A stretch of 63,931 nucleotides of DNA, the filler included, from Collodictyon triciliatum (Eukaryota): assembly GCA_043381765.1 (NCBI GenBank). It is 6 parts of 6 records of this genome, joined end to end, with 100 filler letters (N's around TTAATTAATTAA, not from the genome) between each part and the next. Parts side by side here need not be neighbours in the genome. Positions count along the whole stretch, not along the records: positions 34,391 to 45,733 come from JBHJMP010002424.1; 5 more parts are not named here. The stretch is one strand, 5' to 3'. The notes beneath the pieces are model-generated. The model was not told the origin of the DNA. It saw only the letters and a program-made list of their open reading frames with translations, and searched no databases. The stretch's first letter is position 1; every line of letters begins with the position of its first letter. Below, one piece after another: positions 9,142 to 45,420 of this stretch. A program made the position numbers and the translations under genes.

Positions 9142-10915
9142 GGAAAGTTCATCTATATAAACATATTCTTGGGTTTTTTTTTATTATCTGAATCTTGAAT
9201 TTGAAATACCTATCTTTTCAAACGATAATGACACCGCCAAGCCGTCTGTTTGTAACATGTATTTAAAATTCTAGTATCTTTGATGAAAGACCCTCTTCTT
9301 CATTTCAAAGAAATCATCCCATAGGGTCTCTTTTCATCCTGAGATATTCTTCAGTAATGTTTTTCTAGACAATACTAATAGACCTATCAAACGTGCAGTA
9401 TCTTGAGTAATATGACATGGTACATAATTAGTTCTTTTAAAGATTGGTTGTAGCAGTTTGGTTCCAATGTCCTCAAAAATGCGATTCATGTAAATCAGAC
9501 ATGGTATGTACTTATTTGAATTGACTTCGATGTCATATTCGATACTATTTACAATATCGCTAGGAATGATGTGATGCAAAGCGTTATACCCCATTCTTCG
9601 TATTGTTCCGGTATTTCGAGTTTCTTGAAGATGGTTTTTTTTTAACTTTCGTAACCCTGTCTTTTTAATAGCTTCCGTAATATTCTCATCTTTAGGAACC
9701 GTTTGATTTATAAAGCGCAGCAAACTCTTTTCAAAATGCTCCTTAATGTTATTATGATAAGCTGTTAACATTTACTTTGCCAAGTACGGTAGTACACGAG
9801 ACAGTCTAACCAACATAAAGCGTTCTTCTCGGGACAAAAGGAATCGAAAATCATTGAGATAAAAAGTCATCAGTCAAATCTCATATATGGATGTTTTAAT
9901 CTTGCGAGTCTATCTTATGAAACTATTCCGACTATCTTAAAAACGCACAAAAAAGAAACATTTTATCGATTGTTGAGACTTGTTGTGATTTCAATGTGTC
10001 ACATCTTGCAAACAGATAAGTGTCGGTAACCAAATTATGACACAATATAACCGTATCGTTGATTTTGTCATAGTCATCCGCATTCTTTACAATCGACTTT
10101 AGAGATGCTTTCACATTTCAATGGCCTGGTTTTCCGGACTTAAGATTCCTAGACTCAAGACGTTTCTTTTCTTCATGTGAAAGTCTTTGTTTTACTTTTT
10201 TTTTCTTTTAGAAAACTACCAAGTTCTCAATTTAATAAAACCTTAGTCAATCAGCCAATTTAATGAAAGAAAAAAAGAAAAACTGCATAAAATCAATTTA
10301 TGTAAAATTAAGCATCTACCGAGACTCTCAAAATGTGCGCATTGCGGCAAACAAACACACAAAGTTTTTTTTTTTTTTTACAAGTGATTTTTGGACAAAA
10401 CGCTGAGAGCCGATTCGGCGAGTTCGAAAGGACGGCCGTATAGCCATTGCGACTGAAAGTCAACATATCGGCCCCAAACAACATGATTACCGATGCAAGT
10501 GTGGATAGTATGCTTTTTTGATATGCATGTTTGGTGGCAGTTTTACAGGGTGGGTTCTATCTGGGCCAAGGAAACGGCTTGTTTGTATTTTTTGAATTTT
10601 TGAGTTTTAATATAACATAAATGAAAATAAAATATAAATTGATTACAGGAATAGTATGAGATTGTTAAGTATTTTTAACCTTACTATGTATACTAATCAC
10701 ACTATTATATTATTCAGGTTGTTTCTTGGATTCGTCAAGGCTCCTGCTTTGTCAATCCAGATTTAATTCTATGGTTGTCTGTGCTATAAATTGCTATATA
10801 TGTGCACACTTTCGTTGCATAAAAAGTGTTGTGCTTAGAAGGGATAAAACCAAGTTCATCGCAACCTTTGTAATGAAGTTAACGCATTTACAGGCTGAAT
10901 GAGACCGAAGAGAAA
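9142..10915 (-). mobile_element. Fanzor element copy A, 3'-truncated and pseudogenised (no RuvC part)
   Basis: Reverse complement aligns continuously by eye with 40900-42788. ATG at 10176. Fragments KASLKSIVKNADDYDKINDTV and MLTAYHNNIKEHF...LLRFINQ. Homology stops after ..EYVYIDELS at about 9142. Confidence 0.9.
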
Positions 10916-11385
10916 ATAAAAAGGAAAAAGGAAAAAGGAAAAAGAAAAGAGAAAGAGAAATAGGATAAAAGAAATAAGATAAAGGAAAGAGGAAAAAGGA
11001 ATAGAAAAAGAAACGGATGAACGAATCAGAGCAACTAATACAGAGCACTATACACATACTTATCTTGTTGCCCGTTGGTCGATGGCTAGAGTTCAATAGG
11101 TCTTTTTTTATTCCCCTTTATTACTATTTTTTTCAATGAGCCCGCTCCGTCTTATTAGTAGGTTGTTGACTCACGGGTCGGTGGCAGCTGGCGTCTTGGT
11201 CGTCGGTGTGTCTCGGTGCATAACCTGTTGTTAAGGATGTAGTCAAGTGACCTTTTCGCTCTCTGCGTTGGCTGCGTCGGCCTTCACGGTTTGCGTACGA
11301 TCAGTAGGCATTCCTTAGGGCAGGGCTGTGGCGCCGATCTCGTCCTTCTCGGGGATCCCTCTTTCCGATCGTGTTTTTTTTTTTC

Positions 11386-40720: not shown

Positions 40721-40900
40721 TTTTCCTTTTTCCTTTTTCCTTTTTCCTTTTTCCTTTTTCCTTTTTCCTTTTTCCCTTTTCCCTTTTCCCTTTTCCCTTT
40801 TCCCTTTTTCCTTTTTCCTTTTTCCTTTTTCCTTTTTCCTTTTTCCTTTTCCCTTTTTCCCTTTTCTTTTTCTTTTTCTTTTTCTTTTTCTTTTCTTTTC
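40721..40900. repeat. (CCTTTTT)n pyrimidine microsatellite abutting the Fanzor element's left end
   Basis: Seen directly. The same unit (AAAAAGG on +) abuts copy A at about 10918-10945. Confidence 0.9.
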
Positions 40901-41190
40901 TTTCTCTTAGGTCACGTTCAACCTGTAAATGGATAAAATTCATTGCAAAGGTTGTGACGAACTTGGTTTTATCCCTTTCAAGGCACAACACTTTTTATAC
41001 AACGAAAGTGTACCCATAGAAAGCAATTTATTGCACAGACAACCATCGAATTAAATCTGGATTGACGAAAGCAGGAGCTTTGATGAACCCAAGAAACAAC
41101 CTGAATCATATAATAGTATAGATAGTCTATATAGTAAATATTAAAAATACTTGATAATCTCTTTCTGTTCCTATAATCAATTTACATTTT

Positions 41191-41293
41191 CCACCTGGCC
41201 AACAAGTAGCGTCCATGTAAACGATGGCTAGCGAACCAAAGCCAACACCCCCCCTCGGTCCTGCACAAAAGTTGAAAGGAAGAATAAAAAAAA
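41191..41293 (+). mobile_element. 103-bp retroposed insertion (SINE or 5'-truncated LINE end) with target-site duplication
   Basis: Absent from copy A. Flanked by ATAATCAATTTACATTTT (41173-41190) and ATAATCAATTTATATTTT (41294-41311). Ends in AATAAA plus an A-run. Confidence 0.8.
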
Positions 41294-41741
41294 ATAATCA
41301 ATTTATATTTTATTTTATATTTTTATATCATATCATTAAAATTCAAAAAGACAAACAAGCCCTTGCGTTGGCCCAGACAGAACCCACACCATAAACCTGC
41401 CACCAAACATGCATTTCAAAAAAAGCATACTGTCCACATTTGCGGCGGTAATCATGTTGTTTGGAGCCGATATGTTAACTTTCAGTTGCAATAGCTATAC
41501 GGCCGTCCTTTCGAACTCGCCGAATCGGCTCTCAGCGTTTTGTTTCATATCACTTGTAAAAAAAACTTCGCGCGTTTGTTTGCCGCAATGCGCATATTTT
41601 GAGTCTCGGTAGATGCTTAATTTTACCTGAATTGATTTTTTGCAGTTTATTTATTTGACCAATAGACTGATTGACTAAAGATTTATTAAAATTGAAAACT
41701 CAGTGGTTTTCTAAAGGAAAAAGCAAAACGAAGACTTTCAG

Positions 41742-43691
41742 ATGAAGAAAAGAAAGCGTCTTGAGTCTGAGAATCTAAAGCCTGTAAAACCACACTATCA
41801 AAATGTAAAAATGTCTCTAAAGTCGACTGCAAAGAATGCGGATGACTATGACAAAATCAACGATACGGTTTTATTGTGTCATAATTTGGTTACCGAAACT
41901 TGTCTGTTTGCAAGATGTTACACACTGAAATCACAACTCCCAACAACCGATGAAATGAAAGTTTTTTTTGTACGCTTTGAAGACTGTTGGAATAGTTTCA
42001 CAAGATAACCCCGCAAGATTTAAAACATCCAGATATGAGTAAAGATATGATGATTTTTTATCTCAATGATTTTCGATTCCATTTGTCCCGAGAAGAACGC
42101 TTTCCGTTGGTTGGACTGTCTTATGTATTACCGTACTTGGCGAAGCAAATGTTAACAGCTTATCATAATAACATTAAGGAACATTTTGTAAAGAGATTAC
42201 TGCGCTTTATAAACCAAACAGTCTCTAAACATGAGAATATTACGGAAGCTATTAAAAAGGCAGAGTTGCGAAAGTTAAAAAAAAAAAAAAACCATCTTCA
42301 AGAAACTCGAAATACCGGAACAATATGAAGAATGGACTACAACGCATTTGCATCGTATCATCCCAGCGATATTGTAAATGGTATCGAATATAACGTCAAA
42401 GTCAATCCAAAGAAGTACATTCCATGTCTGATTTACATGAATTGCATTTTTGAGGACACCGGAACCAAACTGTTTCAACCAATCCCTACAAGAACTAACA
42501 ATATACCATGGCATAATACTTTAAATAACGCATGTTTGATAGATATGTTTGTATCAACTGGAAAAACATCATTATTGAAGAATATATCAGGATGCAAAGA
42601 GACCCAATGGGATAAGTTCTTTGAAATGAAGAAGAGGGTCATTCATCAAAGAGACTACAATTTTAAATACATGATACAAACAGACGGCTTGGCGGTGTCG
42701 TTATTGTTTGAGAAGAAAGTTATTTCAAATTCAAAATTCAAATATAATCGAAATACCCAAGAATATGTTTATATAGATAAACTTTCCGAAGAGCATTTAT
42801 ATTTATTAGCGACAAAAAAAATAAAAATAAAATAGTTGGAGTAGACGCAGGCAAGTTTAATTTGGTTTACATGGTGGATGAGACAGGTAAGAAATTACGT
42901 TACACAACACACCAAAGAAGACATGATAGCAAATCTCTTAAAAATCACAAAATACTCTTGCGCGAGAAAAAAAAGTACAATGATTTCAGGGATATATATG
43001 GCAACAGATTTACAAAGTGCTATTTCTTTTGGTGCCATGACTTTTGAAGAGAATCAGCGGTTTAAGACATCAAGAGTATCTTTAATCGATTTAGAGAGAA
43101 CTAAGTAAACACATTTCATGCACGGTCGATTATGAAAAATTTCGAAAGTATATATCTATGAAATCAAGATACCAGATAGAATTATCCAGATTTTATGAGC
43201 ACGTAACTTTTCGAAAGATGAGATGGAGACAGTATGTTAATACAAAAAGAAGTGGACAATTGTTTACGGACCGAATCTAAAAGAGATTTGGCAAGGATGT
43301 CGTACTGGCGTATGGAGACTGGAGCAGAAAATCTCCGGTGAAACATTTTATGCCGACAATCGAAAGAGGATTACGAAAAATACAATCCAAACGTTTTGAA
43401 ACAGTTAGTGTAAATAAATTTAGAACCTTCAAGATGTGCTGCAACCGCGAAAAAGAACTGGAATGAATGAAACTGAAAGGAATACAAAAAAAGGTGTATA
43501 GATGTCTCATGTGTAAAGTATGCAATCGCTCAGAAAGCAAACAAACTGTATTCTTGACAAGGGACTTTAACAGTGCTAATAATATACTTAACAAAGTTCT
43601 TTTTATCCTTCAAAAAAAGCATACATATTTCCCTAAAAAACAGGCTGTCAGGTGTTTCCTGGCGGACTTCACCACTACACAATCTTTGTGA
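41742..43691 (+). pseudogene. Fanzor (TnpB-derived RuvC RNA-guided endonuclease; Fanzor1/giant-virus-like type) pseudogene
   Basis: Basic N-terminus MKKRKR, YMIQTDGLAVSLLF, RuvC-I IVGVDAGKFNLVYM (D at 42844), LRYT..QRR, LAYGDWS...MPT..RGLRK, RuvC-II SVNKFRT (expected E is K at 43416), C-terminal CC..R/CKVC, RuvC-III TRDFNSANNIL (D at 43563). Several frameshifts and stops. Confidence 0.92.
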
Positions 43692-43750
43692 AAAAAGTGG
43701 TGAGACCTTGGATACTAGCGCACCAGGTTTACCAATGGAAATACGGTATA
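43646..43750 (+). ncRNA. Candidate Fanzor omega-RNA scaffold
   Basis: Nested inverted repeats at the ORF end: TCACCACT(43669-76)/AGTGGTGA(43696-703), CACAA/TTGTG, CCTGG(43658-62)/CCAGG(43723-27), GTGTTTCC(43652-59)/GGAAATAC(43737-44). This position is typical of TnpB/Fanzor omega-RNAs. Confidence 0.6.
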
Positions 43751-43959
43751 CTCCTTTTATTTATAAATACATATTGTTACCAAGCATGTAAATACAGCAG
43801 CAGCTCATGCGCAAATTGGACTGGCGCCGACATCCCCCATTTTCGAGACACCTGCAACTACCACGTGAAACTAAGATTCGAGTGGTCTTCCAAACATTTT
43901 GCATTTATTTTAGCTACAGAGCAGACTTTGTCCGATAAATGAATTGACCATCGAAATCT

Positions 43960-45420
43960 CTACAGATCATTAGCATCAAACCCAACCCTCGATGGGTCAC
44001 GCTTGCTTCCAGAGATAGGAGGTTTGATGCTTGTCGGACGTTTGCTTCCTTTCGCAATATTCTCAAGTACAGGCGGGTGCCCAACTTTGCTTGTTCGAAT
44101 TTCCATGATGTCCTCGTAATTTCGCATCTCGACAGCGTTCTCAGTTGAGGCAAAGGCTCCTGCTGCATTCTCATCCTGAACACAAAATAATAGGATTAAT
44201 ACACATGATTAAATCGTAATCGTAGGGTATCATCTTTTGTTTACTCTTATCATAGAGAAGCAAAATTTATTACAAATCTCATCCAGGTGTATGACATATA
44301 TCACATCGCTTTTTCCATTTCATATTTGATGGTTCACCGTAATCACTCACCAAATCATTCCTGTGTTCGTCATTAGAGGCCCCAAACTTCCTTCTAAATT
44401 CAAGCCGCTCATCATCTATGTGCAGCACCAAATATCGTTATTTTTTGAAATAAAATGAAAATGATATTGAAAATGCCTGATGCAAAGCTCTTGCGTATGG
44501 GTCTTCTTCCATTCGTGCCGACTTCTCTTTGCTTCAGTCTACGTGGTTTTGGTTTTGGTTGTTCTTTTTCTAAAACTGTTTCTGGATTCACATTTTCGAC
44601 AGGAGACGACGGTTCAGCCACTTGAACATACATTTCCTGTTTTATTTATTTTTGAAAAAAAAAATCAATTCAGAGAACACAAGAATCGTAATGCAGAGCT
44701 TACTTTCCCTTGTAAACATGAAAAGCACGTCATAAAAAGGTTTCTATAATAGGTTTATATGGATTTATACGCTAAAGTCATCAGTGCCAACAGCCATATC
44801 TCGCTTCGTATGCTCGGGCTCACGAACTGGTTCATACATAAACAATTTAAAATACGTCAGACATAATTGGTGCACTCAAAACGGCAATAACAATCCATAT
44901 ATTAAATTTATTTCGTCTTTAAGAAAAAAAACTTTCTTTCAAGGTTGTATGCACTAAAGAGGGATTCCCTCATCATTTAATTCCTTAACCATATCACTTG
45001 ATCGTGATTGAGTTCTGGGTCATCCTTTTAGTTCTCTCAACTTGGTCTTCATTCCTGTTGTTTATATTAAATCAATAACTCACTACCTGGTTCTGACTTT
45101 CCAGTCCAGTCTCTTCGCTCAAGCCGTTTCTTTCTACGCTCAGCAAGTTCTGTAGCGGAATAGTTAACAGATTGGTGCGGCTACAGGAAAGACACAGGGA
45201 AAGAGGTTTCATTCTCGTTAAAAAAAAAAAAAAAGAAGAAAGAAGGCAGAATGAATTCGATTTAGACAGTTCTCTGTGCGAGAAGGTTAATCATAAAATA
45301 CTTTTGACATCATTCGCTGGTAAAATATTAGGGTATTGCAGCGATTACCAATCTTTGGTGTCTCAAACGTTGGTATTCATGCAACTCTTCCCTTGCCGTC
45401 GCAAGCATATCTTCAATCTA
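43960..45420 (-). CDS. C-terminal exons of an uncharacterised hydrophilic protein
   Basis: GT-AG bounded exons, e.g. IEDMLATAREELHEYQRLRHQRL, VAEPSSPVENVNPETVLEKEQPKPKPRR and last exon DENAAGAF...VGFDANDL*. No family recognised. Confidence 0.55.

What the first reader, a model, noticed from the sequence alone, without database searches (positions are those of the whole stretch)
43646..43775. Nested-hairpin candidate omega-RNA and putative guide at the Fanzor 3' end
Seen: an 8-bp perfect stem TCACCACT/AGTGGTGA enclosing CACAA/TTGTG, an enclosing CCTGG/CCAGG pairing and an outer GTGTTTCC/GGAAATAC pairing (the last two share bases and may be alternatives), overlapping the ORF's final codons. After about 43750 the sequence becomes AT-rich flank. 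Known: TnpB/Fanzor omega-RNAs overlap the gene end and take their guide from the adjacent flank. Inference: scaffold about 43646-43750, guide about the next 15-20 nt.
Basis: partly seen in the sequence, partly recalled or inferred. Interest (0 to 1): 0.75.

Follow-up and report, generated by a model that had tools for sequence, protein, structure and literature searches.

The report
Dead Fanzor1 transposon's guide-RNA scaffold
This is the decayed folded tail of a many-copy jumping gene that once encoded a Fanzor RNA-guided DNA cutter; the tail matches the guide-RNA region of related giant-virus elements, but this copy is dead and its end lies ten bases further right than first proposed.

Summary
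All named stems are present, but only the 8-bp stem 43669-43703 and its inner stem belong to the family fold; the two outer pairings do not. The stretch is the 3' tail of a broken Fanzor1 gene in a family with hundreds of copies; no intact copy was among the 68 scored. Conservation ends at 43760 (family CTAG, then T), not 43750. The family-majority tail folds strongly (z -6.3). The genome's copies show no covariation, but a model built only from them finds the tails of giant-virus-type Fanzor1 elements (9 of 18 loci, E<0.01), with compensatory changes. A 5-bp stem joining a linker to the element's last bases also appears kept. It resembles the base of SpuFz1 stem 2 and puts the scaffold at about 43643-43761, with the guide from about 43762. 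The element lacks inverted ends, has a Helitron-like 3' end, and shows 11-15-bp target duplications ending in ATAAA, so the guide may overlap the duplication. Expression is untested. The scan noted this family before on other DNA of this genome. Verdict: a real but dead new member of a known kind.

The parts
40724..40905 (+). T/C microsatellite inside the element. This copy is cut off here and lacks the roughly 0.75 kb 5' part and the 5' terminus that full copies have.
41191..41295 (.). About 105-bp insert of another repeat, absent from most copies
41742..43691 (+). Broken Fanzor1 gene: several frameshifts and stops; RuvC-I D and RuvC-III D kept, RuvC-II E reads K (43416-18), one zinc-finger C reads R
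   Evidence: relatives
43643..43667 (+).
43669..43703 (+).
43704..43718 (+). Linker and 5' arm (ACTAG, 43714-18) of the proposed closing stem, at the same offset after stem-loop 2 as TTTAC in the relatives
43730..43748 (+). Subterminal hairpin, 8 bp with a 4-nt loop in the family, decayed in this copy
43757..43761 (+). Element 3' end at 43760 (family CTAG, here TTAT) plus first flank base T; 3' arm of the proposed closing stem
43762..43776 (+). Inferred guide (about 15 nt of unique flank); it would start 10-14 nt later if the whole target duplication counted as scaffold
   Evidence: inference

Best explanation
The stretch is the decayed omega-RNA scaffold of a Fanzor1-only transposon family that spread in one burst and then died. 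In the active ancestor, a transcript running through the gene end and about 15 nt into the flank gave an RNA of about 135 nt: stem-loop 1, stem-loop 2, a 10-nt linker, and a 5-bp closing stem between the linker and the last four element bases plus the first target base, enclosing the subterminal hairpin. The guide followed, from about 43762. The Fanzor-RNA complex would cut DNA matching the flank, such as the empty site, and so favour copying the element back. SHOWN: Fanzor1 identity, element end, strong fold, homology and covariation of stem-loops 1 and 2 with relatives, target duplications, inactivity of this gene. INFERRED: the closing stem in this family and the guide start (about 0.6), transcription and processing, and the homing role (from known OMEGA systems).
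For: Gene: a copy fragment hits PpFz1 (7e-10) and SpuFz1 (1e-7); the profile of relatives hits only the three solved Fanzor1s; an intact relative P0001 is 64% identical and keeps the QAVG tail that codes stem-loop 1. End: sharp in 30 aligned copies; CTAG in 57 of 78 clean ends. Fold: majority tail z -6.3 sense, -3.4 antisense. Homology: a model from this genome's copies alone hits the tail of 9 of 18 relatives at E 1.8e-7 to 8e-3, best off-tail hit E 0.52; the reverse model hits the tail in 12 of 14 own loci, weakly (E 0.006-1.7). Among relatives 12 of 18 predicted pairs show double changes. Closing stem: relatives pair TTTAC with G-TA-AA in 18, 17, 18 and 18 of 18 loci at four core positions, one locus changing both sides; this family has ACTAG at the same +11..+15 offset and CTAG-T at the end, three of five pairs changed on both sides. 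SpuFz1 has the same layout: linker, then stem 2 closing on the last scaffold base (PMC10432273). The 16-codon overlap is like the 17 of GtFz1.
Against: No covariation among the genome's own 48 copies (221 of 500 shuffles as high), and the tail is no better conserved than the gene in 19 copies mostly picked by their 5' end (8.8% against 9.4%): expected of dead copies, but no support. The closing stem has a mean pairing probability of only 0.26 in 43 copies and competes with a local stem (43705-43728, about 0.7 in this copy). CTAG is a palindrome and the register at the end is not independently fixed, so the three-pair match could be chance (my rough estimate 5-8%). The 18 relatives include near-identical loci and no test corrects for kinship. 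The joint alignment is fitted to the structure and holds one spurious row of 14. The loop of the last hairpin is inverted in 15 of 49 copies, which fits a DNA hairpin as well as an RNA one.
Confidence: 0.78

Rival explanations
1. Same scaffold, but the whole 11-15-bp target duplication counts as scaffold: the guide starts after its ATAAA end, and ATAAA at the left junction is the TAM.
For: Published rule that the 3' duplication is part of the Fanzor1 scaffold and the 5' one part of the TAM (PMC10711439; PMC13565253). ATAAA lies at +4..+17 in 34 of 78 flanks against 5-10 in control windows, and 9 of 14 against 0-1 in a later set. The relatives insert at a similar TT-TA-AA site. This reading avoids targeting the element's own left junction.
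Against: The duplication varies in sequence and length (RTAAA ends at +11 in 18 cases, at +12..+15 in 17), so it cannot pair as a fixed scaffold. Predicted pairing of the flank motif with the scaffold's TTTAC is 0.006. In SpuFz1 the guide begins right after the closing stem.
Confidence: 0.3
2. The last hairpin, CTAG and A|T site are the end signal of a Helitron-type (rolling-circle) carrier, as in the Fanzor-bearing CRe-1/2/3 elements, and double as the 3' part of the RNA. Compatible with the best explanation.
For: CTAG end with a hairpin about 12 nt before it; T follows in 70 of 78; A precedes the duplication in 5 of 5 best cases. CRe-1/2/3 have 7-19-bp duplications (PMC3627910). The genome holds a Rep-helicase gene with a long open frame. 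Loop inversions suggest a DNA hairpin.
Against: The 5' end reads TTTGCAGG, not TC. No asymmetric inverted repeat was found. Duplications occur on full-length copies, whereas CRe copies with a complete 5' end have none. No shared ends with the three Helitron loci, although the best one lacks its 3' end.
Confidence: 0.35
3. The folds are only DNA-level transposon end structures or chance, with no RNA role.
For: No covariation within the genome.
Against: Stem-loops 1 and 2 are kept with double changes in relatives whose ends are unrelated inverted repeats of an IS630/Mariner-type transposon, so they travel with the Fanzor gene and not with the transposase. The fold is stronger on the sense strand.
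Confidence: 0.08

Closest known systems
Fanzor1 omega-RNAs of SpuFz1, GtFz1 and PpFz1 (PMC10432273; PMC11423790)
   Same: At the gene's 3' end and element right end; overlaps the last codons (16 here, 17 in GtFz1); stem-loop, linker, closing stem next to the guide; no pseudoknot needed; about 119-nt scaffold, between SpuFz1 (90 nt with guide) and GtFz1 (150 nt).
   Different: No inverted repeat in the scaffold; the target duplication is long and variable rather than short and fixed; dead in this copy; never tested.
Giant-virus-type Fanzor1 elements with an IS630/Tc1-mariner transposase (loci L101-L105, L171)
   Same: 44-47% protein identity to P0001; homologous stem-loops 1 and 2, linker and closing stem.
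   Different: They have 20-bp inverted ends, a TA-type site and a DDE_3 gene; the 3' half of the tail has no clear sequence likeness.
MCi-2 of Mucor circinelloides and CRe-1/2/3 of Chlamydomonas reinhardtii (PMC3627910)
   Same: Fanzor1 elements without terminal inverted repeats and with long duplications (11-12 bp with a one-sided AT motif; 7-19 bp).
   Different: Here the motif is ATAAA at the far end of the duplication; no Crypton remnant or Helitron2 repeats were seen; the carrier is unclassified.

Membership tests
Fanzor1 omega-RNA | Adjacent gene is a Fanzor1 (RuvC D-E-D with E next to the C4 zinc finger, RD motif) | tested here: met
   across copies D 32 of 36, E 37 of 46, D 40 of 48; this copy has lost the E
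Fanzor1 omega-RNA | Conserved stretch at the element's right end followed by a variable flank | tested here: met
   end at 43760
Fanzor1 omega-RNA | Conserved secondary structure with covariation | tested here: met
   met against relatives; not seen among own copies
Fanzor1 omega-RNA | No pseudoknot at the scaffold's 3' end | tested here: inconclusive
   The closing stem is nested unless the local stem 43705-43728 also forms, which would make a pseudoknot; relatives give a nested stem
Fanzor1 omega-RNA | Expressed as a small RNA running about 15 nt into the flank | not testable with these tools
   no RNA holder listed
Fanzor1 omega-RNA | Binds Fanzor and guides TAM-dependent cutting | not testable with these tools
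   needs an experiment
Helitron1 | 3' hairpin, CTRR end, A|T site | tested here: met
Helitron1 | 5' TC end and no target duplication | tested here: not met
   5' end TTTGCAGG; duplications in 5 of 19 at score 8 or more against 0.9% of mismatched pairs
Helitron2 | Asymmetric terminal inverted repeats and a 5' hairpin | tested here: not met
   best inverted match 7-13 nt and different in each of 5 copies; the compared 5' stretch did not reach the extreme 5' bases in all five, and a 5' hairpin was not tested separately
IS630/Tc1-mariner (carrier of the nearest relatives) | Terminal inverted repeats and TA duplication | tested here: not met

The most novel reading that the evidence does not exclude
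The Fanzor1 cassette moved from an inverted-repeat transposon of giant-virus type into a carrier with Helitron-like 3' ends and 11-15-bp duplications. It kept stem-loops 1 and 2 and rebuilt its guide-adjacent stem by three compensatory changes to fit the new end. The guide then begins inside the target duplication, against the published rule, so the complex would match the element's own left junction over 10-14 nt. Either duplication length is held below the cutting threshold, or the nuclease takes part in making the duplication.
Probability: 0.25. Interest if true: 0.7.

Novelty: new member of a known kind. Interest (0 to 1): 0.4.

Why it matters
This copy itself does nothing. The comparison gives a covariation-backed fold for a clade of Fanzor1 RNAs that has no Rfam match, including intact giant-virus-type elements that can be tested as they stand. 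It also poses an open question: where the guide starts in Fanzor elements with long, variable target duplications, and how such elements avoid cutting their own left junction. I saw no treatment of this in the listings of five paper searches or in the passages read; supplements were not seen.

Tried and rejected
Rfam: 0 matches at E<=5 in 41000-44500. Pfam on seven window fragments: only a weak OrfB_IS605 hit below cut-off. Expression: no RNA holder listed; two contig-only runs of guessed type hold many copies of the family with no cover from 43778 on, which says nothing on RNA. An exact tail pattern found nothing in viral or prokaryote contigs; P0001 alone found no viral locus; its own DNA could not be obtained. 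RNAalifold on own copies recovered stem-loop 1 but missed stem-loop 2 and gave a weak consensus. In one search two of my four helices were out of register (44% and 63% paired); only helices 1 and 3 count. One search had helix ends off by one, corrected. The duplication test was run three times with the 5'-edge rule revised after viewing the data (p 0.001, 0.002, 4e-5); a later batch of 20 loci gave one full-length copy, ambiguous at 6 of 11. Right flanks inherited from a parent copy: no clear excess of similar pairs (72 against 71 at 9 of 12; 5 against 1.7 at 11 of 12), not supported. Retrotransposition: rejected, as both ends are fixed and there is no tail at the 3' end. A Fanzor cut as source of the duplication: published cut sites lie 14-21 nt from the TAM, which does not fit the motif's place. 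Two subfamilies behind the loop inversion: no linked column among 1015. Host lineage from a neighbouring gene: uninformative.

Full report
Observation. The region folds better than shuffles (z -2.5). In the window copy the 8-bp stem and its inner stem form with probability 0.96 and 0.88, the two outer pairings with 0.00 and 0.01, and an unnoticed stem at 43643-43667 with 0.80. Rfam has no match.

The gene. The frame from 41742 to 43691 is broken by frameshifts and stops. A fragment from a sister copy matches the solved Fanzor1s PpFz1, SpuFz1 and GtFz1, and a profile of 27 relatives matches only these three. An intact 648-aa relative, P0001, is 64% identical and shares a 33-aa insert and the QAVG tail. 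Catalytic positions are mostly kept across copies (D 32 of 36, E 37 of 46, D 40 of 48), but this copy reads K at the E and R at one zinc-finger C. A search of the genome with P0001 gave 1130 candidates; of the 68 scored, none was full-length and free of stops.

The element. The tail gave 354 candidates, 40 scored at 84-89% besides the window itself. In 30 aligned copies conservation ends sharply at CTAG followed by T, window 43760; CTAG ends 57 of 78 clean copies (15 more loci had no clean end) and T follows in 70 of 78. Full copies are about 3.6 kb and begin with TTTGCAGG and a GTTT repeat; the window copy is cut off at a microsatellite near 40724. A tree of 49 copies is star-like with end branches of about 0.08: one burst, then decay. 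No inverted ends were found. Of 19 full copies tested (3 of 22 dropped for short flanks), 5 carry a clear duplication of the right flank at the left end, against 0.9% of mismatched pairs (permutation p 4e-5; the edge rule was revised twice). ATAAA lies at +4..+17 in 34 of 78 right flanks, against 5, 10 and 5 in control windows and 11.8 in shuffles, and in 9 of 14 of a later set. Its end falls at +11 most often and up to +15, and the same motif often stands just before the 5' end. I read the target as A|T-N5..9-RTAAA, duplicated.

The fold. The majority tail of 48 copies (51 found, three dropped for mis-called ends) folds at -50 kcal/mol, z -6.3 sense and -3.4 antisense, into stem-loop 1, stem-loop 2, and a 5-bp ACUAG/CUAGU stem that encloses the last hairpin. 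The copies show no covariation (221 of 500 shuffles as high), and the tail is not more conserved than the gene. That is what dead copies of one parent give, but it is not support.

Relatives. Loci at up to 47% protein identity over full length came from metagenomes and viral contigs. The best are elements with 20-bp inverted ends, a TA-type site and a DDE_3 transposase. Their tails covary: 12 of 18 predicted pairs have double changes in 15 sequences. A covariance model built only from this genome's copies hit the tail in 9 of 18 of these loci at E below 0.01, with the best off-tail hit at 0.52; the reverse model hit the tail in 12 of 14 own loci, weakly. In the alignment UCACCA/UGGUGA stands against UGACCA/UGGUCA and the inner CACA/UGUG against CCCC/GGGG or CCUC/GAGG. 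The fitted joint count agrees but leans to the model and holds one spurious row. After stem-loop 2 the relatives have TTTAC at +11..+15, able to pair with the last element base, the TA and the next A's in 18, 17, 18 and 18 of 18 loci at four positions, one locus changing both sides (p 0.003, kinship not corrected). This family has ACTAG at the same offset with no gap and CTAG-T at the end: three of five pairs differ on both sides. I put chance at roughly 5-8%, and the mean pairing probability in decayed copies is only 0.26.

Mechanism. SpuFz1's scaffold is stem 1, a 6-nt linker, and stem 2 closing on the last scaffold base, with the guide next and the far part of stem 2 dispensable (PMC10432273: passages and sections 8 and 10 read). 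The three solved Fanzor1 RNAs run 75-150 nt and vary after the first stem (PMC11423790, passages). By that analogy the scaffold here spans about 43643-43761 and the guide about 43762-43776. Transcription, binding, cutting and homing are inferred from known OMEGA systems (review PMC13565253, passages), not shown. Published work places the 3' duplication in the scaffold and finds no pseudoknot in Fanzor1 (PMC10711439 and PMC11832414, passages). A variable 11-15-bp duplication cannot be a fixed scaffold, so either the guide overlaps it and matches the element's own left junction, or the guide starts after ATAAA and ATAAA is the TAM. The data do not decide this; I give about 0.6 to 0.3.

Carrier. 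The 3' end meets Helitron1 marks (hairpin, CTAG, A|T), but the 5' end and the duplications do not, and no Helitron2 repeats were found. The genome holds a Rep-helicase gene, with no shared ends in the three loci seen. The closest described cases are MCi-2 and CRe-1/2/3 (PMC3627910: passages, section 12 and parts 3-4 of the text; PMC10530073 and PMC10288648, passages). I leave the carrier unclassified. Supplements of these papers were not seen and may list this family or its RNA.

Verdict. A real, decayed Fanzor1 omega-RNA scaffold; a new member of a known kind; boundaries and fold corrected. Earlier notes of this scan cover the same family elsewhere in this genome. Interest 0.4.

Noticed in passing
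window 43730-43748 and the same hairpin in 49 copies: The 4-nt loop of the last hairpin reads GAAA in most copies and its reverse complement TTTC in 15 of 49, scattered over the tree (12 changes, shuffled mean 12.9) with no linked column: repeated micro-inversion between perfect arms. The last 30 bases are also twice as diverged as the rest.
   Followed up: partly
window 9142-11385, minus strand: A second copy of the family, 85% identical, lacking its last kilobase and so the tail.
   Followed up: partly
window 41191-41295 and 214-306; L191 2022-2111: A roughly 100-bp repeat that lies inside this copy, elsewhere in the window and at another place in copy L061; very deep in the laid contigs, so probably a high-copy small element.
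   Followed up: no
L179/L189 (G000:C6377): Helitron Rep-helicase with an open frame of 1194 codons running off the contig; possibly a young Helitron.
   Followed up: partly
L101-L105, L171, 3' tails: Intact giant-virus-type Fanzor1 plus IS630/mariner elements with a well-covarying tail of about 150 nt and an invariant TTGATTTT linker; ready test cases.
   Followed up: partly
L062, L068, L079 (and L209): Internal-deletion derivatives of 1.3-1.5 kb; three share one breakpoint, so shortened copies also moved.
   Followed up: no
5' region of full copies, e.g. L065 337-360: An 18-nt stretch about 80 nt inside the 5' end resembles the 3' side of stem-loop 2 (16 of 18 in L065); chance or a remnant repeat.
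   Followed up: no
L004 and L011; L003 and L029: Pairs of copies whose right flanks stay alike for 30-60 bases: segmental copies or read-through past the end.
   Followed up: no
window 32135-33744, plus strand: Intron-split host gene with a Rieske domain; a sterol desaturase type is my recollection, not tested.
   Followed up: no
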